Positions 11,396 to 26,836 of a DNA stretch of 29,394 nucleotides are shown one piece after another (positions within the stretch are counted from its first letter, which is position 1; each line of letters opens with the position of its first letter). The stretch is from a virus (taxonomy: Duplodnaviria > Heunggongvirae > Uroviricota > Caudoviricetes), in IMG/VR virus record IMGVR_UViG_2690316131_000018. One strand, written 5' to 3'. Made by a program: the position numbers and the translations under genes. The notes under the pieces are model-generated. The model saw nothing but the letters and a program-made list of their open reading frames with translations, did not search any database and had not been told where the DNA came from.

Positions 11396-13071
11396 TGTGA
11401 TTGCCCACCCTGACCACTAACTGCATTCGCCATAGCTGACAACACACTCGGATCCGAAGTTTTAGCTTCGCTTAGCGTCTTGGCCCCCTGTGCCGCCGCC
11501 ATCCCCATCGCCATCATTTGTTGCTGCTGTTGTTGCTGTGCCCGTTGCTGGCGAGCCTGCTCAACCTGTTCCTGCGGAACAATGACGGTTGGAGACACTC
11601 CGGACATATCAGCGAATGCATCGATCGCCTGATCAACGTTGAGTTTGTCGAGAGCTTCTGGTTTCGCTTGCGCAAGTTGACCAATGAAGTTGACCGTAGA
11701 CGCCAGACTGGACAGGCCGATAGACTTCTGCGCCTGAGCCATGACGGAAATGTATTCGACCTTCAGGGGCATACCTTCCATCGCGTCAGGCGGTGGCGGC
11801 AGCATGTTTTTACGCACCATCATCGAGAAAGCGCGGTCAATGAGAGGATTAAGACATTCGTCGTTCAGACGCTCCAGAACCGGCCCCAACATCAGAAGTT
11901 TTTCTTCTTTCATTTCGATCACCGCTTCAACAGGCATCGAGCGGGTATTGATGTTCTGCAACATCATGAACAGATCGACAAAGTAGGCGCTGTTAATAAT
12001 TTGGCGAGTGTCCTGAATGTCTGCTACCAGATCTGCTGTACTGGGGTTAACCAGATAAGCAGGCCTGAAACCATCCTGACCAGTAATCTGATCGATATAC
12101 GTGATGTCGCCAGGAAGAAGGGAGGCGCGCTGATTCTTGAGGGAAGTCGGAGCAACCATCGGCGGATTGGTGGCTTTATCAATCAACTGCGACTTGCGCT
12201 TCTGGAGAAGCTGCAATGCCTTAACAGGTCCAAGCGCCAGCATACCCGGGCATGATGATCCATAAACATCTTCGCCGTTAACTTCCCAGCGCGGAGCCAT
12301 AATTGGAAACTCATCGAATCCGGACTCACGCAACAACTTGTCGTTATCGCCGCCAACCTCGTAATAAACCGATTTGAATGGCTTGTTCTTGCTATCCAGC
12401 TTCGATGTATCGCGGTCAATGTTCGGGTAAACCGAATGCATCACTTCGATCCACTTCTCGTAGGTGCCGCTTTCCCACATGCTTTTTACGGATTCGCTGA
12501 CGTTATTTAGCCCGAACTCCTGAACAAGCTGACGAACAGTCATAGAGAACTTGCGAAAACAGGTGTCAACACTGCCACGAGGTGAGTTAGCCAGGTAGTA
12601 ACTGCCTATCGGGAATGGCATTGTGCGAATGATGTCCTCGTCATCCTCCAGCACTGCCATTGCACCAGTGCTGTATGTGCCGAGGCTTCCGTATAACTGC
12701 GGAAGAGACTGGTAGAGATTCGACTTATTGAACATATCGTTCATGCGGTTCTGCACCGCCTCAAGCCACAACTTAACAGGGCCATAATCCATCATTTCAG
12801 GATCTGGCGTAGCCAGGCGAAACCACGGACGCGCGGGGCTTGTGATGCCTGACATCATGCCGCTGGCGAGAGTGCGCGCCGCCATAGTCCCGGTCGAATC
12901 AATAATGCGTGTATTGCGTCGATCGTTACGGTTGACCTCTGAAGTCAGAAAGCGGGAACCACGCGGGTTGATGTAATCACTCAACTCGCGCCAGTGCGGC
13001 TCGAACGACTGACGCTCGCTTTCAAGTTGTGCGAACTGTTTGTTCAATCGCTCTTTAGTTGTTTCCGCCAT
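11392..13071 (-). CDS. portal protein
   Basis: 559-aa ORF downstream of terminase. Gln-rich C-terminus (QQRAQQQQQQQMMAMGMAAAQG) resembles the T7 gp8 C-terminus from memory. ATG at 13071 with CGGAG ribosome-binding site. Confidence 0.75.
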   Translation of the reverse strand: MAETTKERLNKQFAQLESERQSFEPHWRELSDYINPRGSRFLTSEVNRNDRRNTRIIDSTGTMAARTLASGMMSGITSPARPWFRLATPDPEMMDYGPVKLWLEAVQNRMNDMFNKSNLYQSLPQLYGSLGTYSTGAMAVLEDDEDIIRTMPFPIGSYYLANSPRGSVDTCFRKFSMTVRQLVQEFGLNNVSESVKSMWESGTYEKWIEVMHSVYPNIDRDTSKLDSKNKPFKSVYYEVGGDNDKLLRESGFDEFPIMAPRWEVNGEDVYGSSCPGMLALGPVKALQLLQKRKSQLIDKATNPPMVAPTSLKNQRASLLPGDITYIDQITGQDGFRPAYLVNPSTADLVADIQDTRQIINSAYFVDLFMMLQNINTRSMPVEAVIEMKEEKLLMLGPVLERLNDECLNPLIDRAFSMMVRKNMLPPPPDAMEGMPLKVEYISVMAQAQKSIGLSSLASTVNFIGQLAQAKPEALDKLNVDQAIDAFADMSGVSPTVIVPQEQVEQARQQRAQQQQQQQMMAMGMAAAQGAKTLSEAKTSDPSVLSAMANAVSGQGGQSQ

Positions 13072-13085
13072 TTCAATGACTCCGG

Positions 13086-13292
13086 TTACTGACCAAGCAG
13101 CGTTTTACCGCTGGTATTAGCGGTTGATGTGTCGCCCTGAGAACCAGTAAGCAGCGTAGAACTACGACCAGCAGCAGCGCGACGGCGACGTGTTTCTTCG
13201 TCGCGGGCATCAACAACGGCGGCATCCTGCTCCTGTGGTGCTGCCTGAACTTCTGGTGTTGCAGGCACTGATGGTGAGCTACCCATGCACAT
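13086..13292 (-). CDS. hypothetical small low-complexity protein upstream of portal
   Basis: 68-aa ORF with ATG start. Its ribosome-binding/start region (TCAATGACTCCG) nearly duplicates that of the portal gene. Coding status uncertain. Confidence 0.3.
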   Translation of the reverse strand: MCMGSSPSVPATPEVQAAPQEQDAAVVDARDEETRRRRAAAGRSSTLLTGSQGDTSTANTSGKTLLGQ

Positions 13293-13382
13293 ATCAATGA
13301 CTCCGTACGCAATTAAATTATTACCAATTTAACCACATATGATTTATTTATCGTAGGTAGTTGACATTTACCGCACGAATTA

Positions 13383-13397
13383 TTACCTTCAAGGTAA
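13383..13397. promoter_or_regulatory. operator-like palindrome TTACCTTCAAGGTAA, with a TTGACA hexamer at 13361-13366
   Basis: Perfect TTACC-N5-GGTAA in the intergenic region between the portal operon and the tRNA island. A degenerate copy (TTACCAATTTAACCA, 13321-13335) lies ~62 bp away. Confidence 0.45.
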
Positions 13398-13720
13398 CCA
13401 AAGAGCTCATTCCGGTTACTAACCTGACTGGCTTGTCGTTAAATTGAACAGGTGGAGTGAGCTTTTATTTTGAGCAGTACGGCGTATGGCACATGCGACG
13501 ATAGCGGTCTGGATACGTTTAAGGGGGCACCCTCCCTTGCTCGGGCAAACGAACCAGGTAGCCGGAATGTGCAAGTCGAGCGGTTTTATTCCGCGCACGG
13601 GGATACACCATCCCGGCGATTCGGTGTGACGCCTCGGAAGAGACGAGGGTACAACGATGAGAGCATTTATGGAGCCGCGACAAAGTGTGGTGCCTTAACA
13701 GGCTAAGTGCTCTCAGCGTT

Positions 13721-13797
13721 GTGGCATTAGCTCAGTCGGACAGAGCAACCGCCTTCTAAGCGGTTGGTCGCAGGTTCGAATCCTGCATGCCACGCCA
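13721..13797 (+). tRNA. tRNA-Arg (anticodon UCU), phage-encoded
   Basis: 77-nt cloverleaf folded by hand: acceptor stem GTGGCAT/ATGCCAC, D-stem GCTC/GAGC, anticodon stem ACCGC/GCGGT with loop CTTCTAA, T-arm GCAGG-TTCGAAT-CCTGC, discriminator G and encoded CCA. D- and T-arms resemble host argU; acceptor and anticodon stems differ. Confidence 0.85.
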
Positions 13798-13840
13798 GAA
13801 TCACGCCTAAGGACCGTGATGCCAGAAGTTCCAGGTGCTT

Positions 13841-13884
13841 GGCGGTGATGGTTTCCCTTGAAGGGCTATCACCGCCCTTTTTAC
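13841..13884 (+). terminator. rho-independent terminator after the tRNA
   Basis: 9-bp stem GGCGGTGAT / ATCACCGCC with a structured loop, followed by CTTTTT. Confidence 0.6.
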
Positions 13885-13960
13885 AGCAGGACGCCATTGC
13901 GATGACTTCATGCTGTAAACCCGTACAGCCACGGAAGGCATAACTCATTGCTTCCAGTTC

Positions 13961-13985
13961 GCCCGGTTCGCCGGGCATTTTTTTG
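13961..13985 (+). terminator. second rho-independent terminator-like hairpin
   Basis: GCCCGG-TTCG-CCGGGC followed by ATTTTTTT. Confidence 0.5.
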
Positions 13986-14019
13986 CCTGATGACCGCAAA
14001 CTACCTTAAAGGTATAATC

Positions 14020-14838
14020 ATGAAAAAATTCAAGGTAATTAGCATGTTTGAATCGTTCAAAGAGCTGTTTTTATCTACTGCCAATACTGCCGTGAATCGA
14101 GCCAAAAACCCTGTGCTTGGTGCTTTTGTTATGTCCTGGTGCGCCTTCAACTGGAAATCAATTCTTTATCTATTTTTTAGCAAATCAAACATAATAGATA
14201 AAATTTCATATATCTCAGATAACAGCACATGGAAAACTGTTATGTTTTATCCATGCTTATCTGTAATTGCTATCTGCTGCCTATTACCATGGGTAAACAA
14301 TATCATTAACGTATGGCAAGCAAAGCCTCTTGATAATAATGACTCAATCGAAAATCACCTGAAGGCAAGAAAAATCCAGCGTGAAACAAGACTGCAGAGG
14401 TTATTGGCTAAAAAAGATGTTACATACGACAAAGTTAAGACTGGCGCGGAAAAAGACATCCAAGAGATGAAAGAAGAGATTATTCGATCAAAGAATAGTA
14501 TGGGGGAATTGACTGCCGAGTTGAAAGCTAAAGATGACGAATTGAGATCCGCCAGTGCTCAGTTAGCAGCTCTAAATCATTCATTAAAAGAGATATCGGA
14601 AACTCTTGGAAGAATGAATGAGGCATATAAGACCCTCCAAAATGATTTCGACGAATACAAACTCAAATACCCTGAAAAATCTCAAATAAAAAGCCTTGCA
14701 CTTGGCAACGGCCAAACAATTAGCAACTTTTTGGAGCAACACAACTTATCCGGATTAAAATCTGGTAAGCCAAACGTTTTTAATAACTTTGGTGTTCTAT
14801 CTGGATTATCAGGTTTCGAGGATAAAAATAAAGACTAA
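14020..14838 (+). CDS. AT-rich cargo gene: predicted membrane protein with long C-terminal coiled coil, unknown function
   Basis: The track ORF starts at 13948, but the probable start is the ATG at ~14020 (MKKFKVISMF), just after a TATAAT. Two hydrophobic segments near the N-terminus, then a charged heptad-like region. AT-rich versus the rest of the window. Convergent with the terminase gene, stops overlapping. Confidence 0.6.
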   Translation: MKKFKVISMFESFKELFLSTANTAVNRAKNPVLGAFVMSWCAFNWKSILYLFFSKSNIIDKISYISDNSTWKTVMFYPCLSVIAICCLLPWVNNIINVWQAKPLDNNDSIENHLKARKIQRETRLQRLLAKKDVTYDKVKTGAEKDIQEMKEEIIRSKNSMGELTAELKAKDDELRSASAQLAALNHSLKEISETLGRMNEAYKTLQNDFDEYKLKYPEKSQIKSLALGNGQTISNFLEQHNLSGLKSGKPNVFNNFGVLSGLSGFEDKNKD

Positions 14839-16310
14839 GCATATGGATCGTACTCGGTAAGCGCCTTGCCTTGCTGGTTCTGCTGCCCGGGAAGTCGCAG
14901 GCGCTTTGACACCGGGAAAGCAAACGTCAGCAGTAGCGCATCGCCTTTACCAGGAGAACGCCCAAGACGCTCTTTGATATCTTCCTTCGGTTCGATAACG
15001 ATTTTACCGTCCACACGAACTTTGTACTCTGCCGCCGACAGGTCGTCTGCAGTTTCCTGGTCATCCAGCATGCCGCCCAGCCTCAGCCATGTCTTACATG
15101 AGTTGAACATCTCCCCACGCTTGTTAAGCATCTGCGGGTCAGTGGACGCACCGCCGAACGGAACAAGTTGCCATGTACGCCCCCAGCCATCACCGATTGA
15201 CTTCAAACCGGTTCCGTAACCGAAGTCGATGAACACCGCGTCAGCCTGATACTGGTCTTCAAAGTCAGCGATACGCTTCGCCATAATCAGATCGTCAGTG
15301 GTCTTGTTGCCAGTCCACAGCACCTTACTGTGCAGCCCCTGCCGCAGGTATATCGCAGCGTCATCAACACCGGAGTATGCCGGGTCAACGCCGATTATCA
15401 CCGGAGCATGTACCACCTGCGCAGCGGTTACCACCCGTTTCATTGCCTCATCAGTAAGACCGGTAGGGATAAACTGCAATTCAGATGCATCAGGGAATAT
15501 GCCGCGCACACGGATTTTAACGAAGTCGCTGTCTTCCCCGTAGTCATCAACCCATTTCTGCAACTGCTATTTGTTAGTGCCTTCCACCGTCCGGCTGTCA
15601 ATCTGCGCAGTTTTCCAGCGGTGTTTGTATTTGCGGAAACATTCGCGAAAACGCCCGGTGTTACGTGTAGGGTTTCCGAACGCCACCCAGATAATCTCAG
15701 TGTCTTCGTCCGTAAGAGCACCCTCAGCAACTTCCCACACCAGATCCGCAATGTTCGACGCTTCATCAAATACCACGATGATGCGTTTGCGCTCGTTGTG
15801 TAGTCCGGCGAATGCCTCAGTGTTGTGCTCAGACCAGGGTATTGCGTCAGCCCGCCACCGCTTGTCGTGCCCAGGGTCATTGCTGTACATCGCGGTAGCG
15901 GTACAGGTAAACCAGTCTTTCGTGATGGCAAGGTTCGACCACTTGATAATTTCCGGCCAGGTCTTCGTTCGTAGCTGGTTGTCGGTGTTGGCGGTCACCA
16001 CGACCTTACAATCCTCGCAAGTGGACATGCCCCAGTTGATCAGCATTGAGATGAATGCGGATTTACCAATACCGTGACCAGAAGCGCGTGCCAGCATAAG
16101 CGGCTGATAGCGCGTCTCTGGATTCTGCAGGTGATCACGTATCTCTCGGAACGCATCGGCCTGCCACTGACGTGGACCGGTAGCATGTGCCAGTTCAGTC
16201 CCCTCTTCCCCCCAAGGGAACGCATAGAGGGCATAGCCAAGCGGATCGTGAGTGAACCCTGCAATATCTTCGATTAACTGCTCTTCAGGAGATAACGCTG
16301 CATCTGTCAC
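14835..16310 (-). pseudogene. terminase large subunit interrupted by an in-frame TAG
   Basis: ORF 15567..16310 has Walker A (GHGIGKS) and Walker B (IIVVFDEAS) motifs; ORF 14835..15563 has a nuclease-like Asp-rich region. Both are in one frame, separated only by TAG at 15567-15569 plus one sense codon. The second ORF starts at TTG, not ATG. Confidence 0.7.
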
Positions 16311-17017
16311 TGATTACCATCCTGACGTTCTTTGAGTCGCTTCCTGGCTGCTGCTATGCGATCAGCAATTGTCACATTCACATTAACATCCAGGCGTTCT
16401 TTGAATGCGTTGACGTCGACGTGCTTACCGATGAGCTCGAGGTTTTTCACCTTGTCGGGCCATTTCACCTTCTTCAGGATATGCTCGACATCCTCAACAG
16501 AGAGATCCGCCTCGCCATTCTCTTTTTGCAGGGAAGCCTGGGTTGTCTTGATGGTAGCGATATCCATAGCACTGAGAGAGGTACGCCAGACCTTCGGCCA
16601 TTCAGTGATCGGCTTCATCCCGCCGTCATCGTTCAGTATATCCAGCACGTCCATCTGGTCTATTTCCACCAGGCGCATGAGAACGTAATCAGCACTGACG
16701 CGCATTCGTTTGTTGCGCTCCTCCATCAACTCGGCAATCCGTTTTTGAATGCGTTCATCGCGCATCATGACACTGGCTTTAACTGCCGCTGTATTTGGAG
16801 AGAATCCTGCGTTAATCGCTGCCTGAGTCTGGTTTTCAGGCGTTTTGATGTATGACTGGCAATAAGCCTCCTGCATTGCTGTTAGTGGCTTAAATTGCGT
16901 TGATTTGCGTTTATAGGTTTTAGGTTCAGCAGGCATCATAACCACCCTGGTAATTGTTACCGTCGTGGTAATAGTAACATGCAAAATAAAGCCGCCATAG
17001 TTGGCGGCAGTATTCAA
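16307..17017 (-). CDS. terminase small subunit
   Basis: Motif AYCQSYIKTPENQTQAAINAGFS is typical of phage small terminases. Probable start is the ATG at ~16939 (MMPAEPK); the longer track N-terminus would run through a terminator and operator. Confidence 0.65.
   Translation of the reverse strand: MNTAANYGGFILHVTITTTVTITRVVMMPAEPKTYKRKSTQFKPLTAMQEAYCQSYIKTPENQTQAAINAGFSPNTAAVKASVMMRDERIQKRIAELMEERNKRMRVSADYVLMRLVEIDQMDVLDILNDDGGMKPITEWPKVWRTSLSAMDIATIKTTQASLQKENGEADLSVEDVEHILKKVKWPDKVKNLELIGKHVDVNAFKERLDVNVNVTIADRIAAARKRLKERQDGNQ
16957..16971. promoter_or_regulatory. operator-like palindrome TTACCGTCGTGGTAA just upstream of the terminase genes
   Basis: Perfect TTACC-N5-GGTAA between the terminator (16981-17008) and the small terminase start (~16939). 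Confidence 0.45.
16981..17008 (-). terminator. rho-independent terminator between the nin-like block and the terminase genes
   Basis: GCCGCC-N6-GGCGGC hairpin followed on the - strand by TTTATTTTG. Confidence 0.5.
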
Positions 17018-17057
17018 AACCCATCAAATTCATCATGCATAATCTACTCGTGACATG

Positions 17058-17405
17058 TCACACTATTAATTTCGTTTCATGCCAGCCTTTAGTCACCCAG
17101 CATTGCGAGTCACCATTACACGGGCATGAATTAACTGGAACTCTCTCGCCGCACTTACCGCAACGTTTTCTGCTGATCGATTTTATACGCCCGCGCACAC
17201 GTGCATCATCCTGGCGGATCAGCAGCGCGATGTACTCGGCCATTTCATAGGGATCGCGACCAGGGCGCCGGGCGGCGCAGTTCCGCGCTAGCATTTCCTG
17301 CTCCTGCTTATCCAGCACCAGTTCAATTTTGCGCTCACCGGCGGCGGACTGCCGAGCGCGCTGCGCGGCTTTGCGTTCTGCGGGGGATTTAGCCACGAAT
17401 CGCAC
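17058..17405 (-). CDS. hypothetical basic protein with Cys-rich C-terminus (possible DNA-binding regulator)
   Basis: 115-aa ORF with GTG start. Arg/Lys-rich N-terminus and a CGKCG...CPCNGDSQC cluster. Last gene before the terminase terminator. Confidence 0.4.
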   Translation of the reverse strand: MRFVAKSPAERKAAQRARQSAAGERKIELVLDKQEQEMLARNCAARRPGRDPYEMAEYIALLIRQDDARVRGRIKSISRKRCGKCGERVPVNSCPCNGDSQCWVTKGWHETKLIV

Positions 17406-17511
17406 TCCACGCCAGATTGATTAATGACTCCCAGGTAATATAAACCCGGATACCAGCAGCCAGGCCGAAACCAATCACCATGGCATAAAGCAGAGCGTTG
17501 CACTTGTTCAT
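17389..17511 (-). CDS. possible small hydrophobic protein (~40 aa)
   Basis: ATG at ~17511 overlaps the stop of the DUF551 gene (ATGA). MNKCNALLYAMVIGFGLAAGIRVYITW is a single hydrophobic segment. Not independently supported. Confidence 0.25.
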   Translation of the reverse strand: MNKCNALLYAMVIGFGLAAGIRVYITWESLINLAWSAIRG

Positions 17512-18410
17512 CACTTCACCTCCTGCGGCGGTTCTGGTAGAGGCATCCAGTGTGATGGTATCCACGACGCACCAGGTATTACCCACCCATCATTAGCGTC
17601 AGGATGCCCCGGGATGTAAGTCGCCCATTTCATTCGCCAGTCACCTTTCCTGTCAAACTCCCTGGCAACAAGAACGGCTGTTTTGGTATCCGGCATTCGC
17701 TCACTACAGCTTATCCAACCATCCGGAGTTGCCGGAGAGTTGCCCGATAGTGCATTCTGCTCCAGTGATGCTTTTACAAACCACGCTGCCTGAACTATAA
17801 CGCCATGAATCCAGCGCAAATCAGCATCGCGATCTTTCTTTTTCATCTTTTCGCCACTTAAGGCCTTGCTTATGTGGCTGCGTACCAGGTCTTCATGTAA
17901 TTCCTTCGCCTCCTCAATGGTGAAACCACCAGGCAGAAGAGCCGGAGTTACCGGAGAGCTGGTTGACGCTTCCGGGATTTCCCGAAAATTATTGGTTGAC
18001 GAATTCTTGCTTTCCCGAAAGTTTCCGGACTGAAGCATGGCGGTGCGGCAGGCGTTCCATATTTCGGCAGCAATATCGCGCTCGCTATCGGTTAATTTGT
18101 ACGTGGAAACATAGCCAGAGAGCATTTCTACGTTTTCCGGAGTTGCTTCTTCCGGCACTACCGGCGCTGGCGGGGCGATGCGTCCAAGCAACTTATTTAC
18201 CTCTTTCGCCATCGCGTCATATTTATCTAAATGGCGATTAGCTTCTAAGCAGACTCGGCGCATCTGATCTGAGTTAACTCGTTTAACTGGATCTGCTTCC
18301 AGCGATGCCAGCGCAATCCGTGCCAGTTCCATTTGTTCACCACGGGTAAGCCCGTTTTCAAGCGGATTTTTAATGAACAATTCAATACGTTCTTTGGTAA
18401 TAGTGGTCAT
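17511..18410 (-). CDS. DUF551-domain phage protein
   Basis: 299-aa ORF. The C-terminus (...WISCSERMPDT...HWMPLPEPP) matches the DUF551 signature common in prophage nin regions. Confidence 0.55.
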   Translation of the reverse strand: MTTITKERIELFIKNPLENGLTRGEQMELARIALASLEADPVKRVNSDQMRRVCLEANRHLDKYDAMAKEVNKLLGRIAPPAPVVPEEATPENVEMLSGYVSTYKLTDSERDIAAEIWNACRTAMLQSGNFRESKNSSTNNFREIPEASTSSPVTPALLPGGFTIEEAKELHEDLVRSHISKALSGEKMKKKDRDADLRWIHGVIVQAAWFVKASLEQNALSGNSPATPDGWISCSERMPDTKTAVLVAREFDRKGDWRMKWATYIPGHPDANDGWVIPGASWIPSHWMPLPEPPQEVK

Positions 18411-18649
18411 GTGTTAATCCTCAAAACTTTATGCCCGGGCGCAAAAGTACGTGTTTTGTCTTTGCTTATTCGCCAGCCATCCTTGCGCGCCTCTTTTGCA
18501 CAGCCAGCCCATGACGTACCTATATACTCACCGAAGTCTGGCACTGGATATACACCTTCCGTGCACTGACGGCAGTCACAATAGAGATGCATGGTGTAAC
18601 TTGCAGCGATAGCCATATCACTCTCCTTTGATGCGAATGCCTGTTGCAA
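18407..18649 (-). CDS. small Cys-rich hypothetical protein
   Basis: Probable start is the internal ATG at ~18616 (MAIAASYTMHLYCDCRQC), which avoids overlap with the upstream gene. Confidence 0.4.
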   Translation of the reverse strand: MQQAFASKESDMAIAASYTMHLYCDCRQCTEGVYPVPDFGEYIGTSWAGCAKEARKDGWRISKDKTRTFAPGHKVLRINT

Positions 18650-19061
18650 TGCTGTTTATGATGCTGTCAGTGCATGGGGTAGAAAGCTGGGCATCTCCAG
18701 CAATTTTCATGACCTCAACATCTGCATATCGAATACCGAGGTGTATCAGACCGGCTATGCCTGACTTAAGCCGAGCATTTTCCATAAATAGAACTTTTGC
18801 CCGCTGTTTTTCTGCTTCAAGCTCAACGCGCAGCTTCCCTACCGTTAGCGCAATATCCTCGTTCTCCTGATCGCGGCTTTTGATGTATTTCTGGTTTCTT
18901 TCCCGTTCATCCAGAAGCGCCAGCACAATGTGTGGCGTTATCAGGGACTCAAATTCGGCAACAGCTTGCTCGCCTCGCTTGTAATTCTTAATCCCACCTA
19001 AATCTTTCGCGTTCTGCGCCGCCTCACGCAGTACCTGATAGTCAATTGTCATTCTCGCCAT
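18618..19061 (-). CDS. Ead/Ea22-like coiled-coil protein
   Basis: 147-aa ORF with a coiled-coil core containing ENARLKS, also present in the ORF at 19690..20136. Confidence 0.5.
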   Translation of the reverse strand: MARMTIDYQVLREAAQNAKDLGGIKNYKRGEQAVAEFESLITPHIVLALLDERERNQKYIKSRDQENEDIALTVGKLRVELEAEKQRAKVLFMENARLKSGIAGLIHLGIRYADVEVMKIAGDAQLSTPCTDSIINSIATGIRIKGE

Positions 19062-19693
19062 CCTTCACAGTTGTAATCACTACAGCCTTCAAAATCATAT
19101 GGGCTGTACTGCCAGGTGATTTTTCCGCAATGCGGACAATTCCAGCGCACCTTCCCGCTTCGTGACTTCTTTCTTCTGTTTTGCTTTTTCAACCAGTCAG
19201 GCATGATCAAACCTGCGCCCTGAACCATTGTTCTGCGGTTAAAATTATTGATATTGAACGTCCGCCGCTTTGCTGCATCGGCAATGGAAAATGGCAACCA
19301 AACTATTCCTGGTTCGTTTTTGTTGGCGACGCTAAAGATGGTCGCTTTACTGAAGTCATCTGTTGGCAATCCACCGTGTTGAAGCCAGTAAACATCGTTG
19401 CCGTTCCAGCTACCTTTTTTGTAGGCCACATACGCAGTGCAATCTGACTCAATCAGGCTTTCTGTAGGGATGTACTGGCAATCAACGTGCCACACAGCCA
19501 TTGCATCCACGCTATCAGCGCAAACAGGCTGATCGATATCTCGTCCACAATTCCAGGCTTTTTGGGCTTCTTCCAGCGTGTAAATATGAGCGCGATCGAT
19601 ATCAGAACTGTAACCATTGCCGTTATGGCAATGGAATGAGGCGTTATTACCCACAGTTTCACGCAAGCACATCATGTAAAAACGGTTACTCAC
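19049..19693 (-). CDS. hypothetical Cys-rich protein with C-terminal zinc-ribbon-like motif
   Basis: 214-aa ORF ending CPHCGKITWQ...CSDYNCEGW. Confidence 0.45.
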   Translation of the reverse strand: MSNRFYMMCLRETVGNNASFHCHNGNGYSSDIDRAHIYTLEEAQKAWNCGRDIDQPVCADSVDAMAVWHVDCQYIPTESLIESDCTAYVAYKKGSWNGNDVYWLQHGGLPTDDFSKATIFSVANKNEPGIVWLPFSIADAAKRRTFNINNFNRRTMVQGAGLIMPDWLKKQNRRKKSRSGKVRWNCPHCGKITWQYSPYDFEGCSDYNCEGWRE

Positions 19694-20136
19694 TGGTTGC
19701 CTCCTTTGCGAAGCTCAGCGGCGAAGGCTACTGCGTGATCATGATGTTCAAGTGTGTATGCACACTTGAACATCTCCACGCCCTGCGCCCGTACTTCAGC
19801 TAGGAAAGCATCGGTGGCTGGGGTGTCAACACGGATACTGTCGCGCAAGATGAAAAATGCATTGAGCATCCCAGTCTCCGGCACTTCATCCTGATACTTC
19901 TCATACGCATCAAGAGCCTTCATCATCTCAGGTCCGAATGGTTGAGGGTGCGCAGATTTCAGTCTCGCATTCTCCGCCGCCAGCGCATTAGCACGCACCA
20001 GTTGCACTTCCAGTTGCGTTGCCAAATCGCTGATCAGCTTTGCCACACTGCGCATATCAACGGCACCACATTCTGCTTTCAGTTCCGAAGCCATCTCATG
20101 CCCGGCGGCAACTAACCCTTTGATATTACTTTCCAT
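19690..20136 (-). CDS. Ead/Ea22-like protein (paralog of 18618..19061)
   Basis: 148-aa ORF sharing the ENARLKS coiled-coil motif. Confidence 0.5.
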   Translation of the reverse strand: MESNIKGLVAAGHEMASELKAECGAVDMRSVAKLISDLATQLEVQLVRANALAAENARLKSAHPQPFGPEMMKALDAYEKYQDEVPETGMLNAFFILRDSIRVDTPATDAFLAEVRAQGVEMFKCAYTLEHHDHAVAFAAELRKGGNQ

Positions 20137-20197
20137 CTTTACCCTCGCTTATCCACATAACTTATTGATTACATTGATAACTAAAAAGATCGTCGAT

Positions 20198-20542
20198 TCA
20201 GAACTCTTCGATGTTCCAGCCACCACCTGCTTTCTTTGGTTTAACCGTTACCCCGATGATTCGGAACGGATACTGATCTGCGGCGACTTTGGTTTTCACC
20301 CTGGCGTCGTCGGTCCAGAAACCTTTCACTTCGTGCAGTTCCATCTCTCCGGTGGCGAGCATCACAGCGAAATCGGGCGTATAGAACGTGTTATCAGCTA
20401 ACCGCAGCTTGATACCCTCAAATCGATACCAGACGATTTCTCCTGCACGTTTACGCAGCTCAAGGTGCTGGCAATACGCAGATTCTGTTTTGTTCATCTG
20501 ACCTGTTTTGAGTCGACCAAGAGCCTGTATCTGTTTTCTCAT
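20198..20542 (-). CDS. DUF1064-like phage protein, putative PD-(D/E)xK nuclease
   Basis: 114-aa ORF with ATG start. The YTPDF...E.HEVKG pattern fits a restriction-endonuclease-like fold. Confidence 0.5.
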   Translation of the reverse strand: MRKQIQALGRLKTGQMNKTESAYCQHLELRKRAGEIVWYRFEGIKLRLADNTFYTPDFAVMLATGEMELHEVKGFWTDDARVKTKVAADQYPFRIIGVTVKPKKAGGGWNIEEF

Positions 20543-20545
20543 GAT

Positions 20546-20622
20546 TTACCTCTGAGGTAATTAAAAACCACATAAGACACGAAATCAATAGATTTTAGAA
20601 TATTTTATTACCTAACAGGTAA
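20546..20622 (-). promoter_or_regulatory. repressible promoter for the nin-like block, flanked by two operator palindromes
   Basis: On the - strand: operator TTACCTGTTAGGTAA (20608-20622), then -35 TTGATT (20583-20588), 17-nt spacer, -10 TTTAAT (20560-20565), then operator TTACCTCAGAGGTAA (20546-20560) abutting the -10 and containing the ribosome-binding site for the ATG at 20542. Confidence 0.5.
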
Positions 20623-20659
20623 TTGTCGAGGCGTAAAAAAATGCGCTATCGCGCTGGTA

Positions 20660-21460
20660 TTACTTGATAAATCCTGCCGCCTTTCCTCGCCTGTATTCCT
20701 CCATCAGCCACTGCGCCGGTGTTATTCCACCAAGGGTGGCGGCGTTAGGCATGCACCCGAAACTTCGCCCTGGTGGATGGTAAACGTCTCTCCCTGTGTC
20801 CGGAGGTGTACTCATGGGTTCTGGCTTTGCCTGTATGCTGATCACCGGATCGGGTATCTGCTGTCCGGAAGCCACCTTTTTCGCCCAATCATCGAGCAGC
20901 TTGCGCGCGTGTTTCTCAACCTCAATCTCGCTAAGCTGGCGCTGATACATTGCACGGCGGGTATCACATACGACCCAGTACATAACCGGATGTCGCCACG
21001 GGAATCTTTCGGGACCACCAGGATATAAACTTTTTTCCTTGCTGTACCGGTTAAACTCCGCCATCACATCGTCAATGGTGACGCCAAGAACCATCTTGCT
21101 GTCTTTACACCACTTGATGAATTGCCCAGGCGACGGCCAGAACGGAGATTCACTGGCGCGGGCGTGGCGCATACCAGCAGAAACCTGTTCACGGGTTCGG
21201 ATCCCCCCTTCGGCAAACGCAGCAATCCACTGCTGTTTTGCAGCAACTTCCTGCTCTGGCGTCTTCAGGTTGGTTACCACTGCCGCCGGAAACAGTTGTT
21301 TCAGCTGTTTGAAAAGGGCATCAACAAGCCTCTCTGCTGACATGTTCACCACGTTATCATTGTTGGTGTACTGATGCTCATAACCTGACATGCGAGAAAG
21401 GGCTTCTCCGTCACGGTTTTGTATCGCGGTAAAAACGTTGTTCACAAGAAATCCTCCCAT
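20660..21460 (-). CDS. lambda P-like replication protein (helicase loader)
   Basis: Central region closely resembles lambda P from memory (WIAAFAEGGIRTREQVSAGMRHARASESPFWPSPGQFIKWC; LYPGGPERFPWRHPVMYWVV). Probable start is GTG at ~21445, preceded by GGAGGA and overlapping the O-like stop. Confidence 0.75.
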   Translation of the reverse strand: MGGFLVNNVFTAIQNRDGEALSRMSGYEHQYTNNDNVVNMSAERLVDALFKQLKQLFPAAVVTNLKTPEQEVAAKQQWIAAFAEGGIRTREQVSAGMRHARASESPFWPSPGQFIKWCKDSKMVLGVTIDDVMAEFNRYSKEKSLYPGGPERFPWRHPVMYWVVCDTRRAMYQRQLSEIEVEKHARKLLDDWAKKVASGQQIPDPVISIQAKPEPMSTPPDTGRDVYHPPGRSFGCMPNAATLGGITPAQWLMEEYRRGKAAGFIK

Positions 21461-22257
21461 GCTTCAGGGCTGTTCCTGTGCGGAACGTTGTTATCAGGTA
21501 ATGTTGATTGCTTCTGTCTGCTAATCTGCAGCCTCCTTGCCAGCTTCTGCTCCCACTGTGCCTGATGGTATGCCTTACCCTCAGCCATCCAGTAAATTCT
21601 GAACTCTGCAAGTTCCTGTGCCGTTGGCAGACTGTCCAGGTAGATCCCCTGCAATGAGCTTTTCCGAAGAAAGTCATCTGATGGCTGCCATTGTTCATGC
21701 ATGACAAATTTGCCTAATTGCCCTGGCCCACCAGGAGGAACAAAGTTATTCATCACGGCGTTGTTTGCGCCGGGGTCATGAGGCACAGAATCCCCGCTTT
21801 TTGTCCTGCTCTCCCTCTCTTGGTTAAATGACTGGTTATATGACTGGTTCTGGATCCCGTTTTTGGGATCATTCAACATCCCGTTTTTGGGATCATTCAA
21901 CATCCCGTTTTTGGGTATATTCCCGTTTTCGGTAACATTACCGTTTTCGGGTTCATTGCCCCCCTCCAGGTTGCCTTTAATGTTCCCGTTTTTGGTTATA
22001 TTAAGAGAGAAAACCCGCACTCTTTTTGTCGCTCCCTTTCTCTCTCCGGTATCTGAAATAAGCCCCATTTTCATGAGCGATATAAGCCCGGCCTGCACGG
22101 TTTTTTTATTCAGGCAAGTGTCTTTAACGAGGCGTTCTATGCTGGGGTAGCAGAGGTTATATTCATCGGCTCTGTCAGCCATCGAGAGCAGTATGAGCTT
22201 TAATGATGAGCTACCTGGATCTGTCTCCCAGGCCCAATCTGTTGCATGTCTGCTCAT
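21442..22257 (-). CDS. lambda O-like replication initiator
   Basis: 271-aa ORF with an N-terminal HTH-like region, internal repeats (NGMLNDPKNG) encoded by iterons, and position directly upstream of the P-like gene. ATG at 22257 with GGAG ribosome-binding site. Confidence 0.7.
   Translation of the reverse strand: MSRHATDWAWETDPGSSSLKLILLSMADRADEYNLCYPSIERLVKDTCLNKKTVQAGLISLMKMGLISDTGERKGATKRVRVFSLNITKNGNIKGNLEGGNEPENGNVTENGNIPKNGMLNDPKNGMLNDPKNGIQNQSYNQSFNQERESRTKSGDSVPHDPGANNAVMNNFVPPGGPGQLGKFVMHEQWQPSDDFLRKSSLQGIYLDSLPTAQELAEFRIYWMAEGKAYHQAQWEQKLARRLQISRQKQSTLPDNNVPHRNSPEAWEDFL
21854..22002. repeat. origin-type iterons inside the O-like gene
   Basis: Two tandem 24-bp copies of ATCCCGTTTTTGGGATCATTCAAC followed by degenerate copies. 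Each has an internal inverted repeat (ATCCC...GGGAT) and resembles lambda ori iterons. Confidence 0.65.
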
Positions 22258-22272
22258 GATTAATCTCCGCTA

Positions 22273-22536
22273 TCAGCTTGAGTGTTGTGGGGAGGAATTA
22301 ATCATGATCTGCTTAATCTCTGCCCTGATGCGACGGTTTGATTCCATGGTGCACTCAACACAGTGTCCGTTGTAAACCCAGCGTTCACTGTCATGTCCGT
22401 GCTTACATGGTTTTCCGGTGTAGTAGCGTTTAAGTCCGCGCTTTGCGGCATCAATACGTGTAATGATTTCCATGGTAAGCCCTGTTATTAGTATTGGGAT
22501 TACGGTTATTTTGTGCTGACACAAAAAAAAGATCAA
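22273..22536 (-). CDS. small zinc-finger-like hypothetical protein (cII position)
   Basis: Probable start is the ATG at ~22473 (MEIITRIDAAK...CKHGHDSERWVYNGHCVEC). Located between the Cro-like and O-like genes. Confidence 0.4.
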   Translation of the reverse strand: MIFFLCQHKITVIPILITGLTMEIITRIDAAKRGLKRYYTGKPCKHGHDSERWVYNGHCVECTMESNRRIRAEIKQIMINSSPQHSS

Positions 22537-22553
22537 CCATATTTGGTTTTTTA

Positions 22554-22568
22554 TTACCTTTGAGGTAC
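22554..22568. promoter_or_regulatory. operator-like palindrome TTACCTTTGAGGTAC
   Basis: Imperfect TTACC-N5-GGTAA between the Cro-like gene's terminator hairpin and the next gene. Confidence 0.4.
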
Positions 22569-22583
22569 GAATAGATATGAAAA

Positions 22584-22601
22584 GACCGCCGGATGGCGGT
22601 C
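22584..22601 (-). terminator. possible terminator after the Cro-like gene
   Basis: GACCGCC-GGAT-GGCGGTC hairpin followed on the - strand by TTT. Weak T-tract. Confidence 0.35.
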
Positions 22602-22623
22602 TACAGAGGGTTGTGGCTGGATA

Positions 22624-22854
22624 TCATGAGTAGAAGAAGTATGCCAGTTCTGCTTTTGAGCGCAGCCATTGTCTTGTTTTACAGGCTTTAAAAAGCCCAT
22701 TCATCAATACCTTACCTGGGATTTTGCGCTTACCTGTTAAGTGAGTCTGGATATAGTGACTCGTCGTTCCGGCTTCCTGTGCGAAGGCTTCACGCTCATC
22801 CGGAGTAAGTGCAAGCCAGTGCTTTTTGAAATCGAAATGTCCGTTATCGCTCAT
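22624..22854 (-). CDS. Cro/CII-like HTH regulator, first gene of the rightward-equivalent operon
   Basis: 76-aa ORF with ATG start, divergent from the repressor gene. HTH-like segment EAGTTSHYIQTHLTGKRKIP. Confidence 0.55.
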   Translation of the reverse strand: MSDNGHFDFKKHWLALTPDEREAFAQEAGTTSHYIQTHLTGKRKIPGKVLMNGLFKACKTRQWLRSKAELAYFFYS

Positions 22855-22890
22855 AGCTATTGCCTGATATTTATTTCAGATAATAAATAT

Positions 22891-22953
22891 TCACCCATAA
22901 GGTAACAAAAATCAAGGATAGTTACCTGTGGGGTGCATTTACCTGTTGGGTAA
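22891..22953. promoter_or_regulatory. tripartite operator region between the Cro-like and repressor genes
   Basis: Three TTACC-N5-GGTAA-type sites: TCACCCATAAGGTAA (22891-22905), TTACCTGTGGGGTGC (22922-22936) and the perfect TTACCTGTTGGGTAA (22939-22953). Confidence 0.6.
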
Positions 22954-23008
22954 TATTGCTTTAAATTGAATCATCTACTGATTCATATATGAGGCGATTT
23001 TCCAGAAA

Positions 23009-23593
23009 ATGAAAAGTATCCAGGACGTCCGCAGGCAAAATCTCAACGACTTGATCGACCGTGAATTCAATGGTGTTCAGACGCGGATGGCAGAAAAACT
23101 TGGAACTCAGGCAAATCTGGTAAACCGCTGGGCTCTTGGCAAGAAGGTTATCGGCGACCAGGTTGCGCGAAAAATCGAAGCTGCCGCCAATAAACCCCGT
23201 AACTGGCTTGATATCGATCGCTCGCTTTCTCAGGAAGGTTTTCAGCCTGTCGGACCAAGCGACATTGGTCAACTGGCGGCTCACAACCTGGAACGCTGGA
23301 TGAGCGAAAGCCGCGACCTTTCAACACAGGGAAAACTTCACCGCGCATCTGGCGTCTCCCAGGTGACAATCAGCCGCCTGTTAAACAATGAGGTCAGCGT
23401 TTCCATTTCCACCCTGGAGAATGTTGCATCCGCATTCGGGCGTCACGGCTATGAATTACTGATTCACCCGCACGACCCTGCGACCATCAACTATGACCGC
23501 TCGCGCTACGCATTGTTACCCGAAACCGAGAAAGCAAAGATCGAAAGTTACATTGAATTTGTCATCAACCAGAACGAAAAAAACAAACAATAA
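23009..23593 (+). CDS. prophage repressor-like HTH protein, no obvious autocleavage domain
   Basis: 194-aa ORF with ATG start, divergent from the Cro-like gene. Two HTH-like segments (QTRMAEKLGTQANLVNRWA and ASGVSQVTISRLL). I see no Ser/Lys peptidase motifs. Confidence 0.6.
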   Translation: MKSIQDVRRQNLNDLIDREFNGVQTRMAEKLGTQANLVNRWALGKKVIGDQVARKIEAAANKPRNWLDIDRSLSQEGFQPVGPSDIGQLAAHNLERWMSESRDLSTQGKLHRASGVSQVTISRLLNNEVSVSISTLENVASAFGRHGYELLIHPHDPATINYDRSRYALLPETEKAKIESYIEFVINQNEKNKQ

Positions 23594-23613
23594 AATCATA
23601 TTTTTCAGTAAGT

Positions 23614-23640
23614 AAGCCGCCTTCTGGCGGCTTTTTTATT
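23614..23640 (+). terminator. rho-independent terminator after the repressor gene
   Basis: AAGCCGCC-TTCT-GGCGGCTT followed by TTTTATT. Confidence 0.6.
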
Positions 23641-23650
23641 GCCTGTTTGA

Positions 23651-23727
23651 TTACCTAAAGGGTAATTTTTTTAACTCATATCTATTGACACCAAACCAAA
23701 TACGCATAATCATTACCTCAACGGTAA
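23651..23727 (+). promoter_or_regulatory. pL-like early-left promoter with two flanking operator palindromes
   Basis: TTACCTAAAGGGTAA (23651-23665), TTGACA (23685-23690), CATAAT-like -10, then TTACCTCAACGGTAA (23713-23727). Operator centres are ~62 bp apart, as at the nin promoter. Confidence 0.5.
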
Positions 23728-23746
23728 CAAGCCGAGGTAACAAATT

Positions 23747-23899
23747 ATGCAGTGGAAAATCATCAACGGTTGGTACTGCGTTACTGCATGCGGATTCATG
23801 AGCTGGAAGTTCCGCACCTTACAGGAAGGCATTAAGTGGGCTTTCGTCAGCAAAGAAGCTCGCGATGTAGCCAACGATAACGAGATATGGGAGGGCTGA
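23747..23899 (+). CDS. possible small protein (50 aa), first ORF of the early-left operon
   Basis: ATG preceded by GAGGTAA at good spacing. My translation: MQWKIINGWYCVTACGFMSWKFRTLQEGIKWAFVSKEARDVANDNEIWEG. Too short for the ORF track. Confidence 0.3.
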   Translation: MQWKIINGWYCVTACGFMSWKFRTLQEGIKWAFVSKEARDVANDNEIWEG

Positions 23900-24201
23900 T
23901 AATGAACGTTAATCAGCAGAAAAATCTTCAAAAAATCATGCTGGCATTCGACAAGGACTACCGCCTGTCAGAACAGCTATATGACCGACAAGTTGAACTG
24001 ATCGAGAGCATCCGGCTTCATCAACTAGCCTCAACTTTCGACGCTGTAACAGGTAAAGGCGTTCGCCAGGAAGTACTGGAGGCCGCTAAAGACAGTCCAG
24101 AGTTCGAAGAACTGATGGATTCCTACCGGCGCGAGGCAATGGCAATTATCGCCCGCTGGGATCTGGCTGATCAGCTTGATGGACAGAGGGACGCGGCATG
24201 A
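23887..24201 (+). CDS. hypothetical early protein
   Basis: Probable start is the ATG at ~23902 (MNVNQQK), preceded by GGGAGGG. Stop overlaps the exonuclease start. Confidence 0.5.
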   Translation: MGGLIMNVNQQKNLQKIMLAFDKDYRLSEQLYDRQVELIESIRLHQLASTFDAVTGKGVRQEVLEAAKDSPEFEELMDSYRREAMAIIARWDLADQLDGQRDAA

Positions 24202-26178: not shown

Positions 26179-26427
26179 ATGAAAGGTGCATTAGGTAAGA
26201 AGGAACTCCTGGCGGTGGTGCCACTGTCATGGAGCACTATCGATCGTATGGAGCGCGCAGGGGAATTTCCTAAACGCTGGTATATCACCGATAAACGCTG
26301 CGCATGGAACCGTGATGAAGTTGAGCGTTGGCTTGATGAACGTCAGGCAGCAAGTCCGGCAGAGTTCCAGGGTAAAAAACCTCCTGTTCAGCAACGTGTA
26401 TATCGTCCCGTGAGCAACGCGGCATGA
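26179..26427 (+). CDS. AlpA-family HTH protein (regulator or excisionase-like)
   Basis: 82-aa ORF; LSWSTIDRMERAGEFPKRWYITDKRCAWNRDEVERWL matches the AlpA/Xis-type HTH pattern. AGAGAGG ribosome-binding site. Confidence 0.6.
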   Translation: MKGALGKKELLAVVPLSWSTIDRMERAGEFPKRWYITDKRCAWNRDEVERWLDERQAASPAEFQGKKPPVQQRVYRPVSNAA

Positions 26428-26540
26428 GTGTGCTGCTAAGGCACTGGAGCAAATGGTCAGGATGGTACTTATTCCTGGCCTCTGTTTCAGCATGGCTTTA
26501 TCTGCTGGCATTAATTTTCAGAGAGGGTTGGATTAAGTGA
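26424..26540 (+). CDS. possible small hydrophobic peptide (38 aa)
   Basis: ATG overlaps the AlpA-like stop (ATGA). My translation, MSVLLRHWSKWSGWYLFLASVSAWLYLLALIFREGWIK, has one transmembrane-like segment. Unsupported otherwise. Confidence 0.25.
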   Translation: MSVLLRHWSKWSGWYLFLASVSAWLYLLALIFREGWIK

Positions 26541-26836
26541 GAAAGTTAAGCCGACTTGAAAAATATCACATGAACAAGGTTTCAATGCGCAGCCCTTCAA
26601 AGGTTGTTGCCGTTACTCCTGCGGCGATAGAGATCGAAAAACGCGCGATTGAAAGAGAGAAAAAAGGGCAGTTCCGCATTGCCGCTCACCTTTGGCTTCA
26701 GTGTATGGATGTTGCTTCTGGTGATGTTGAGCGTGCAAGGATCGCGGTTCGCAGGGACCAATGTATCACAAAAGGTAACGGCCTTCGCCGTGGCGACTAT
26801 AGCGGCATAGGATGTTGTGGGGTGGTTTATGACTAA
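26537..26836 (+). CDS. PerC-like transcriptional activator family protein (tentative)
   Basis: 99-aa ORF with GTG start and GAGAGGG upstream. EREKKGQFRIAAHLWLQCMDV resembles the PerC/Pch signature from memory. Confidence 0.4.
   Translation: MRKLSRLEKYHMNKVSMRSPSKVVAVTPAAIEIEKRAIEREKKGQFRIAAHLWLQCMDVASGDVERARIAVRRDQCITKGNGLRRGDYSGIGCCGVVYD

What the first reader, a model, noticed from the sequence alone, without database searches (positions are those of the whole stretch)
16939..17010. Late operon starts behind a terminator and an operator palindrome, with no Q-like gene anywhere in the window
Between the P-like gene and the terminase genes there are only nin-like small genes. The small terminase gene is preceded by a terminator hairpin (16981-17008) and a perfect TTACCGTCGTGGTAA (16957-16971). 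No Q antiterminator, holin, endolysin or Rz candidate is visible. Late-gene control is therefore not lambda-like and may rely on direct derepression or an unrecognised activator, for which the Cys-rich 115-aa protein at 17058..17405 is one candidate.
Basis: partly seen in the sequence, partly recalled or inferred. Interest (0 to 1): 0.6.

Follow-up and report, generated by a model that had tools for sequence, protein, structure and literature searches.

The report
Repressor-gated late promoter behind a terminator
In this epsilon15/phiV10-like prophage the DNA-packaging and head genes have their own weak promoter, covered by two prophage-repressor binding sites and shielded from upstream transcription by a terminator; the operator and terminator are already annotated in phage epsilon15, but the small DNA-binding protein encoded just upstream, with its own conserved 12-bp site, is an untested extra regulator.

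Summary
On the minus strand a strong intrinsic terminator (17008-16991 plus T-tract) is followed by TTACCACGACGGTAA (16971-16957). A second, one-mismatch copy lies at 16953-16939, and terS starts at ATG 16936.

The palindrome is one of 10 TTACC-N5-GGTAA sites in the window (0.47 expected). These match the sites marked 'repressor' in the epsilon15 GenBank record, one of which sits just before its terS. The window's repressor is a homologue of SPC32H Rep.

An extended -10 element, TGnTAnTAT, abuts the first operator in all 35 distinct relatives, with or without the terminator. The most likely reading is therefore a repressor-gated late promoter, insulated from the early operon.

No Q, holin, endolysin or Rz family matches any window ORF. 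The lysis cassette of relatives lies beyond the window's left end, so its absence is a window artefact.

The 115-aa protein (really 112 aa, epsilon15 gp49 family) models as a ribbon-helix-helix fold plus a Cys zinc module. A 12-bp palindrome, GTGAC-NN-GTCAC, sits at its stop codon in 56 of 71 distinct contexts, down to 34% protein identity. Further copies lie next to terminators. Its role is open.

The operator-plus-terminator arrangement is an ordinary member of a known kind. The gp49-and-site module is the new lead.

The parts
17058..17396 (-). Gene for a 112-aa protein (the 115-aa ORF from GTG 17405), epsilon15 gp49 / phiV10 p55 / N15 gp46 family (phrog_536). It is the last gene of the early-right (nin-like) operon. 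Predicted ribbon-helix-helix fold plus a C-terminal Cys zinc module.
17050..17061 (.). 12-bp palindrome GTGACATGTCAC straddling the stop codon of the gp49-family gene. Presumed binding site of that protein.
   Evidence: The only exact copy in the window. GTGAC-NN-GTCAC lies within 4 nt of the homologue's stop codon in 56 of 71 distinct contexts, and also in homologues of 34-39% identity, N15 and a P2-like Yersinia phage.
16983..17015 (-). Intrinsic terminator: G+C stem 17008-17002 / 16997-16991, outer A-U stem, T-tract 16990-16983. It ends the early-right operon.
   Evidence: Annotated in epsilon15. Conserved in 29 of 35 distinct terS-upstream contexts by eye, and replaced by an ORF end in the rest.
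16971..16979 (-). Predicted extended -10 promoter element TGTTACTAT (TG at 16979-16978, hexamer TACTAT at 16976-16971). There is no recognisable -35. The predicted transcription start is near 16964.
   Evidence: TG.TA.TAT abuts the first operator in 35 of 35 distinct contexts, and only the non-critical positions vary. The start site is inferred, not mapped.
16957..16971 (.). Operator O1, TTACC-N5-GGTAA, over the predicted start site.
   Evidence: Corresponds to the epsilon15 'protein_bind repressor' site at 12-27.
16939..16953 (.). Operator O2 (TTACCAGGGTGGTTA on the minus strand, 1 mismatch). It covers the Shine-Dalgarno sequence GGGTGG (16947-16942).
   Evidence: A second, weaker repeat is conserved at this place in relatives.
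16307..16936 (-). terS, the small terminase subunit and first gene of the late block.
   Evidence: Pfam Terminase_2 E = 5e-28 and phrog_51.
23009..23593 (+). Prophage repressor Rep, the protein expected to bind the TTACC-N5-GGTAA operators.
   Evidence: E = 4.3e-42 to SPC32H Rep, PDB 5D50. Operators flank the gene at 22891, 22939, 23651 and 23713.
20546..20629 (-). Repressor-controlled promoter of the nin-like operon that ends at the terminator: TCGACA-N16-TAAAAT with an operator at 20608-20622 between the hexamers and another at 20546-20560.
13383..13397 (.). A further operator, upstream of the 68-aa gene and portal block. It corresponds to the epsilon15 repressor site at 2931-2947.

Best explanation
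The terS-proximal region is a repressor-gated late promoter placed directly after the terminator of the early-right operon.

Shown from sequence and comparison:
1. The nin-like operon ends in a strong intrinsic terminator.
2. Immediately after its T-tract lies a conserved extended -10 element, TGTTACTAT.
3. Two TTACC-N5-GGTAA repeats follow. One covers the predicted start site and one covers the ribosome-binding site.
4. The same repeat occurs at the immunity region, at the nin-operon promoter and before the portal block.

Inferred: in the lysogen, Rep (a homologue of SPC32H Rep) occupies O1 and O2 and blocks RNA polymerase at this promoter, and the terminator stops any early-right transcripts. 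After Rep is inactivated, sigma-70 polymerase starts at about 16964 and transcribes terS-terL. The other late blocks have their own operator-bearing starts. No Q-type factor is needed for this. The lack of a -35 element suggests a weak promoter that may be helped by another factor.
For: - Terminator.
- Operator motif enrichment: 10 sites against 0.47 expected.
- The epsilon15 record marks the same motif as repressor sites at 12-27 (before terS), 2931-2947 (before gp3/portal), 19895-19911 (before the tailspike gene) and in the immunity region.
- My own scan adds a site at 24704, before the epsilon15 holin block.
- The window's Rep is homologous to SPC32H Rep.
- TG.TA.TAT abuts O1 in 35 of 35 distinct relatives. 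It is kept even where the terminator is replaced by an inserted ORF, some preceded by a LexA-box-like palindrome.
- The promoter-then-operator layout resembles the window's left-operon promoter, TTGACA-N17-...CATAAT-CA-TTACC.
- Samsonia and Proteus prophages keep palindromes plus a -10 before terS, the Proteus ones with a different repeat sequence.
- No Q family hit anywhere in the window.
Against: - No transcript start is mapped, and the promoter has no -35.
- Rep binding to these sites is inferred from motif identity and enrichment. I could not read the SPC32H or epsilon15 papers.
- Simple derepression gives no early-to-late delay.
- The gp49-family gene and its site are kept at this junction in every relative examined, which hints at a second layer of control.
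- The operators could act as roadblocks or loop anchors rather than promoter operators.
- This copy may be defective, because terL carries a nonsense codon.
Confidence: 0.6

Rival explanations
1. Late genes are reached mainly by read-through from the early-right operon. The gp49-family protein binds GTGACATGTCAC at the 3' end of its own gene and lets RNA polymerase pass the adjacent terminator. This would be a Q-like timing device, but local and tied to DNA sites next to terminators. Further sites after terL and after the last structural gene would do the same at the next terminators.
For: - The order regulator gene, then site, then terminator, then late genes mirrors lambda Q, qut/pR', tR' (own knowledge).
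- epsilon15, phiV10 and phiv142-3 each have exactly three sites, each within 0-36 nt of a terminator hairpin.
- N15 has a site about 115 nt upstream of the terminator that ends its leftward early operon.
- 39 of 92 distinct sites have a strict terminator within 60 nt, against 25 of 475 offset control windows.
- gp49 is the last early gene, so it would accumulate late.
- There is a weak similarity to the RNA-polymerase-binding DksA/TraR zinc finger: E = 0.02-0.06 against the PDB, and hhalign P = 8e-5.
Against: - The site-to-terminator distance and order vary, and an ORF separates them in a variant seen in at least 20 viral contigs.
- Some relatives have no terminator before terS.
- The sites after terL and after the last structural gene are followed by genes on the opposite strand.
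- The offset controls are mostly coding sequence, so the enrichment partly reflects operon ends.
- The helix that aligns to TraR is the second helix of the RHH fold.
- A roadblock that enhances termination fits the same data.
Confidence: 0.22
2. The gp49-family protein is a classical activator of the -35-less late promoter(s). It would be the Gram-negative counterpart of RinA-type regulators, which are encoded directly upstream of terS.
For: - The gene sits immediately upstream of terS in all Uetakevirus relatives examined.
- The promoter lacks a -35.
- In Vibrio phages the sites lie upstream of the holin block and about 20 nt before terS.
- RinA is a precedent for a late activator acting on a promoter upstream of terS (abstract of PMC3152322).
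Against: - The distance from the palindrome to the -10 is not conserved: about 80 nt here, about 65 nt in epsilon15 and over 250 nt in the L058 type.
- The other two sites are about 380 and 800 nt from the next operator-bearing starts.
- A P2-like phage carries both this protein and Ogr, and has no site at its late promoters.
Confidence: 0.1
3. The palindrome and hairpin have no regulatory role beyond ending the early operon. The late genes would be driven by an unrecognised Q-like protein among the unknown ORFs.
For: Several small ORFs have no assigned function.
Against: - The motif enrichment and the conservation of its position.
- No Q-family HMM hit.
- The nin-like ORFs vary between relatives, while the operators and gp49 are constant.
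Confidence: 0.05

Closest known systems
Phage epsilon15 (GenBank AY150271.2) and phiV10: annotated repressor site and terminator at the gp49/terS junction
   Same: The gene order gp49, terminator, TTACC-N5-GGTAA, terS is the same. Further repressor sites sit before the portal and tailspike blocks, and the lysis cassette lies after the tail-fibre gene.
   Different: The window has an extra 16 nt between the palindrome and the terminator, a remnant of a small ORF. It has a different inserted gene after terL, which removes the second GTGACATGTCAC site, and a nonsense codon in terL.
SPC32H Rep repressor / Ant antirepressor switch (PDB 5D50)
   Same: The repressor is homologous (E = 4e-42) and the phage type is the same.
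   Different: I could not read which operators were tested experimentally. Control of late promoters by Rep is inferred here.
Lambda Q / pR' / tR' late control
   Same: A small Cys-containing DNA-binding protein is encoded just before a terminator that precedes the late genes.
   Different: There is no sequence or fold relation to any Q family. No conserved promoter lies between the site and the terminator. Repressor operators sit on the late promoter, and sites are repeated at later terminators.
RinA-family late activators of Gram-positive phages (PMC3152322)
   Same: The regulator acts on a promoter directly upstream of terS.
   Different: No homology was tested or seen. The site spacing here does not fit a fixed activator position.
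Ribbon-helix-helix repressors (Arc, Mnt, CopG, AmrZ, TacA, MatP)

Membership tests
Lambda-type Q antitermination module | A protein of a Q family (Pfam Phage_antitermQ, Antiterm, Phage_antiter_Q, or the Q21/Q82 types) | tested here: not met
   No such Pfam, NCBIfam or PHROG hit for any window ORF scanned.
Lambda-type Q antitermination module | A constitutive late promoter with a Q-binding element and a promoter-proximal pause, followed by a terminator | tested here: not met
   The only promoter-like match upstream of the terminator (GTGACA-N18-CATGAT) lies in a deletion remnant. Its -10 is not conserved in relatives.
epsilon15-type (Uetakevirus) repressor-operator control | A Rep homologue encoded in the element | tested here: met
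   ORF 23009-23593, E = 4.3e-42 to SPC32H Rep 5D50.
epsilon15-type (Uetakevirus) repressor-operator control | TTACC-N5-GGTAA repeats in the immunity region and before the late blocks | tested here: met
   10 sites against 0.47 expected. Their positions parallel the epsilon15 'repressor' features.
epsilon15-type (Uetakevirus) repressor-operator control | Rep physically binds these sites and represses terS transcription | not testable with these tools
   Needs EMSA or footprinting and reporter assays. The primary papers were not available.
Ribbon-helix-helix DNA-binding proteins | A strand-helix-helix core that dimerises to form a two-stranded ribbon | tested here: inconclusive
DksA/TraR C4 zinc-finger proteins | A C-x2-C...C-x2-C zinc finger after a long helix, and binding in the RNA polymerase secondary channel | tested here: inconclusive
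MatP/matS | Homology to MatP and a 13-bp GTGACRNYGTCAC site | tested here: not met
   hhalign E = 0.14 with 0.4% probability, and BLASTP finds nothing. The site is 12 bp.

The most novel reading that the evidence does not exclude
The gp49-family protein (RHH core plus zinc module) together with GTGAC-NN-GTCAC is an undescribed, widely spread phage regulatory module. It is present in epsilon15-like podoviruses, N15-like and P2-like phages, and Vibrio and Xenorhabdus prophages. The site is kept at the gene's own stop codon and next to terminators. In this reading it acts on RNA polymerase at those terminators, by local anti-termination or by insulation, and so supplies the early-to-late timing that Q supplies in lambda.
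Probability: 0.25. Interest if true: 0.75.

Novelty: new member of a known kind. Interest (0 to 1): 0.42.

Why it matters
As written, the finding describes the normal late-operon start of an epsilon15/phiV10-type prophage. It documents how a large group of enterobacterial prophages does without Q: each late block carries repressor operators.

The part worth following is different. A small protein with no Pfam family has a 12-bp site that travels with its stop codon across very different phage types and recurs beside terminators. If it modulates termination, it would be a new kind of phage timing device and a simple, portable protein-and-site pair. If it only structures DNA, it is still an unannotated conserved cis element in hundreds of prophages.

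Tried and rejected
- Q, holin, endolysin and spanin HMM searches of the window ORFs scanned found nothing relevant.
- The sigma-70-like match GTGACA-N18-CATGAT upstream of the terminator was considered as a pR'-like promoter. I rejected it because the stretch is a deletion remnant of a roughly 60-aa ORF present in relatives, and the -10 is not conserved.
- MatP homology was rejected.
- Direct sequence search of the PDB with the single protein found nothing. Foldseek against PDB and BFVD gave no informative hit.
- The AlphaFold database library was unavailable.
- A locus search with the alignment failed because no conserved stretch was long enough.
- The epsilon15 genome paper and both SPC32H papers are not held.
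- No paper in the library contains GTGACATGTCAC.
- Rfam finds only the tRNA in 13000-24000.
- A universal late-activator role for gp49 was rejected because of its coexistence with Ogr and with N15 gp40.

Full report
**What the window is.** The window is the internal part of an epsilon15/phiV10-type (Uetakevirus) prophage, about 96% identical over shared parts to Escherichia phages phiv142-3, EC.W1-9 and PAS61. Most genes are on the minus strand. From right to left the order is:
- integrase, 28138-29394;
- the recombination and methylase block on the plus strand;
- repressor, 23009-23593;
- a cro-like gene, 22624-22854;
- a DnaT-like gene and a P-like gene;
- a variable nin-like stretch with DUF1064, Ead/Ea22-like, DUF551 and small unknown genes;
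- the 115-aa ORF;
- terS and terL;
- an inserted plus-strand gene with tRNA-Arg(tct);
- portal, protease, capsid, tail and internal virion proteins.

**The observation.** On the minus strand the 115-aa ORF ends at 17058. A hairpin GCCGCCA-ACUA-UGGCGGC (17008-16991) followed by TTTATTTT is found by the terminator scan. It folds at -16.2 kcal/mol with z = -4.97. Then comes TTACCACGACGGTAA (16971-16957), a second copy with one mismatch (16953-16939) that covers the Shine-Dalgarno sequence GGGTGG, and the terS start at ATG 16936. The word 'perfect' applies to the arms only.

**What the palindrome is.** TTACC-N5-GGTAA, allowing one mismatch, occurs 10 times in the window against 0.47 expected. Its positions are:
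- two copies between the cro-like gene and the repressor gene;
- two copies just downstream of the repressor gene, flanking a TTGACA...CATAAT promoter;
- one copy after the cro-like gene;
- two copies at a TCGACA-N16-TAAAAT promoter between the P-like gene and the DUF1064 gene;
- two copies before terS;
- one copy before the portal block.

The epsilon15 GenBank record marks this same motif as 'protein_bind: repressor'. Its marked sites are at 12-27 (just before terS), 2931-2947 (before gp3/portal), 19895-19911 (before the tailspike gene), three in the immunity region, and 35906-35922. My own scan adds one at 24704, before the holin block. The window's repressor is homologous to SPC32H Rep, whose structure is solved (E = 4e-42). 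The palindrome is therefore a Rep operator. That identification is public annotation, not a discovery.

**A promoter under the operators.** I collected 114 loci that encode a homologue of the 115-aa protein and extracted the 110 nt before terS. There are 35 distinct sequences with a TTACC-type repeat. In all 35 the nine bases TG-N-TA-N-TAT abut the first operator. Only the two positions that do not matter for an extended -10 promoter vary.

The element is kept whether the upstream neighbour is the terminator or the end of an inserted ORF, which in some relatives is preceded by a LexA-box-like palindrome and has no terminator after it. The conserved unit is therefore a -35-less extended -10 promoter plus operators. 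O1 lies over the predicted start (about 16964) and O2 lies over the ribosome-binding site. The terminator is a frequent but dispensable insulator from the upstream operon. The start site and Rep occupancy are inferred.

**No Q, and where the lysis genes are.** Pfam, NCBIfam and PHROG searches of the window ORFs scanned give no antiterminator, holin, lysis endolysin or spanin. In phiV10 the cassette of membrane protein, holin, endolysin and Rz/Rz1 lies at 24.8-26.6 kb, after the tail-fibre and O-acetyltransferase genes. In phiv142-3, which has the window's orientation, it lies at 128-1925. The window stops inside the internal-virion-protein genes, so the cassette is simply outside it.

**The 115-aa protein.** Its real start is probably GTG 17396, giving 112 aa that begin MAKSPAERK like the homologues. 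It equals epsilon15 gp49, phiV10 p55 and N15 gp46. It has no Pfam or NCBIfam family. PHROG 536 is labelled 'transcriptional regulator'.

A profile search of the PDB gives marginal hits to YbiI and F-plasmid TraR, covering the long helix and the zinc finger (E = 0.02-0.06). hhalign against a three-sequence TraR/YbiI/DksA alignment gives 62% probability. Foldseek does not confirm it. I treat this as a lead only.

**A conserved site attached to that gene.** GTGACATGTCAC (17050-17061) straddles the stop codon. Among 71 distinct downstream contexts, 58 have GTGAC-NN-GTCAC between 20 nt upstream and 300 nt downstream of the stop codon, and 56 have it within 4 nt of the stop. This holds in Citrobacter, Klebsiella, Pantoea, Xenorhabdus and others, whatever gene follows. 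It also holds in N15, in a P2-like Yersinia phage, and in homologues of only 34-39% identity. A 10-specified-base palindrome is expected about 0.04 times per 40 kb.

epsilon15, phiV10 and phiv142-3 each have exactly three copies:
- one at the gp49 stop codon, 21-36 nt before the terminator;
- one directly after the terL terminator hairpin;
- one directly before the terminator that ends the structural operon.

N15 also has three. One lies between the last gene of its leftward early operon and that operon's terminator, and one lies inside repA. Vibrio phages have copies upstream of the holin block and about 20 nt before terS. With a strict definition, 39 of 92 distinct sites have a terminator within 60 nt, against 25 of 475 offset control windows. 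Those controls are mostly coding sequence, so the enrichment is overstated. In the window the post-terL copy is missing, because a 296-aa plus-strand gene has replaced that stretch.

**What the protein does is open.**
- A fixed-position activator role is unlikely. The distance from the site to the terS promoter varies from about 65 to over 250 nt, and the other two sites are hundreds of bases from the next late starts.
- A universal late-activator role is excluded. The P2-like phage also has Ogr and no site at its late promoters, and N15 has gp40, which is annotated as its late transcription activator.
- The recurring position at the ends of operons beside terminators fits a factor that changes termination locally. 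This could be anti-termination, giving a Q-like delay because the gene is last in the early operon, or a roadblock or insulator between convergent units.
- A DNA-structuring role cannot be excluded. From my own knowledge, the half-sites equal those of E. coli matS, but hhalign against MatP is not significant.

**Verdict.** The feature is real and functional-looking, and its main components are already annotated in epsilon15. The argument from the missing lysis genes is an artefact of the window. The conserved protein-plus-palindrome module is the part that deserves experiments.

Noticed in passing
window 17050-17061; also L043 (epsilon15) 2142 and 19517, L004 9613, L008 (phiV10) 2262 and 19493, L045 7086, 24300 and 26565: The 12-bp palindrome GTGAC-NN-GTCAC is tied to the stop codon of the gp49-family gene across many phage types. 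It recurs next to terminators after terL and after the last structural gene. No paper in the library contains the sequence.
   Followed up: yes
window 15567-15569 (minus strand): terL carries an in-frame TAG where phiv142-3 has CAG, splitting it into ORFs of 247 and 242 aa. Either the prophage cannot package DNA, or this is a sequencing error.
   Followed up: partly
window 5115-7586 (minus strand): The large tail protein gene (about 823 aa in phiV10) is split into 249-aa and 535-aa ORFs with a stop near 6840. The internal virion protein ORF at 118-1359 is also shorter than its phiV10 counterpart. These are further signs of decay.
   Followed up: partly
window 13721-14838: An inserted plus-strand module lies between terL and the portal block: tRNA-Arg(tct), two plus-strand terminators, and a 296-aa coiled-coil or membrane-like protein (phrog_4780, unknown function). 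It converges on terL and replaces the terminator and palindrome found there in relatives.
   Followed up: partly
window 20546-20629 (minus strand): A good sigma-70 promoter, TCGACA-N16-TAAAAT, has one Rep operator between its hexamers and another at the start of the DUF1064 gene. The nin-like operon therefore has its own repressor-controlled promoter, separate from the promoter beside the cro-like gene.
   Followed up: partly
window 17016-17049; L058 1099-1290: The stretch between the palindrome and the terminator is a deletion remnant. It keeps the ...DEFDG* ending of a roughly 60-aa ORF that is intact in a variant seen in at least 20 viral contigs.
   Followed up: partly
L009, L010, L094, L098, L115, L121 (between the gp49 homologue and terS): Some relatives carry an ORF of about 90-115 aa inserted here. 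In those I read (L009, L010, L094) it is preceded by a promoter overlapping a LexA-box-like palindrome (TACTGT-N8-ACAGTA). In several of them (L010, L094, L098, L115, L121) it is not followed by a terminator, so SOS-induced transcription could run straight into terS.
   Followed up: no
L131 (N15) 28550, 33237, 39269: N15 has three GTGAC(T/C)(G/A)GTCAC sites: at the gp46 stop codon, between gene 33 and the terminator of the leftward early operon, and inside repA.
   Followed up: partly
window 17389-17586 (minus strand): A small ORF whose conserved 40-aa core (phrog_5525) is one hydrophobic helix overlaps the start of the gp49-family gene. Its function is unknown and it is not a recognised holin.
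   Followed up: no
window 26537-26836 and 26179-26427 (plus strand): PerC-like and AlpA-like small regulators lie in the early-left operon. They are other possible transcription factors of this phage that nobody seems to have placed in its circuit.
   Followed up: no
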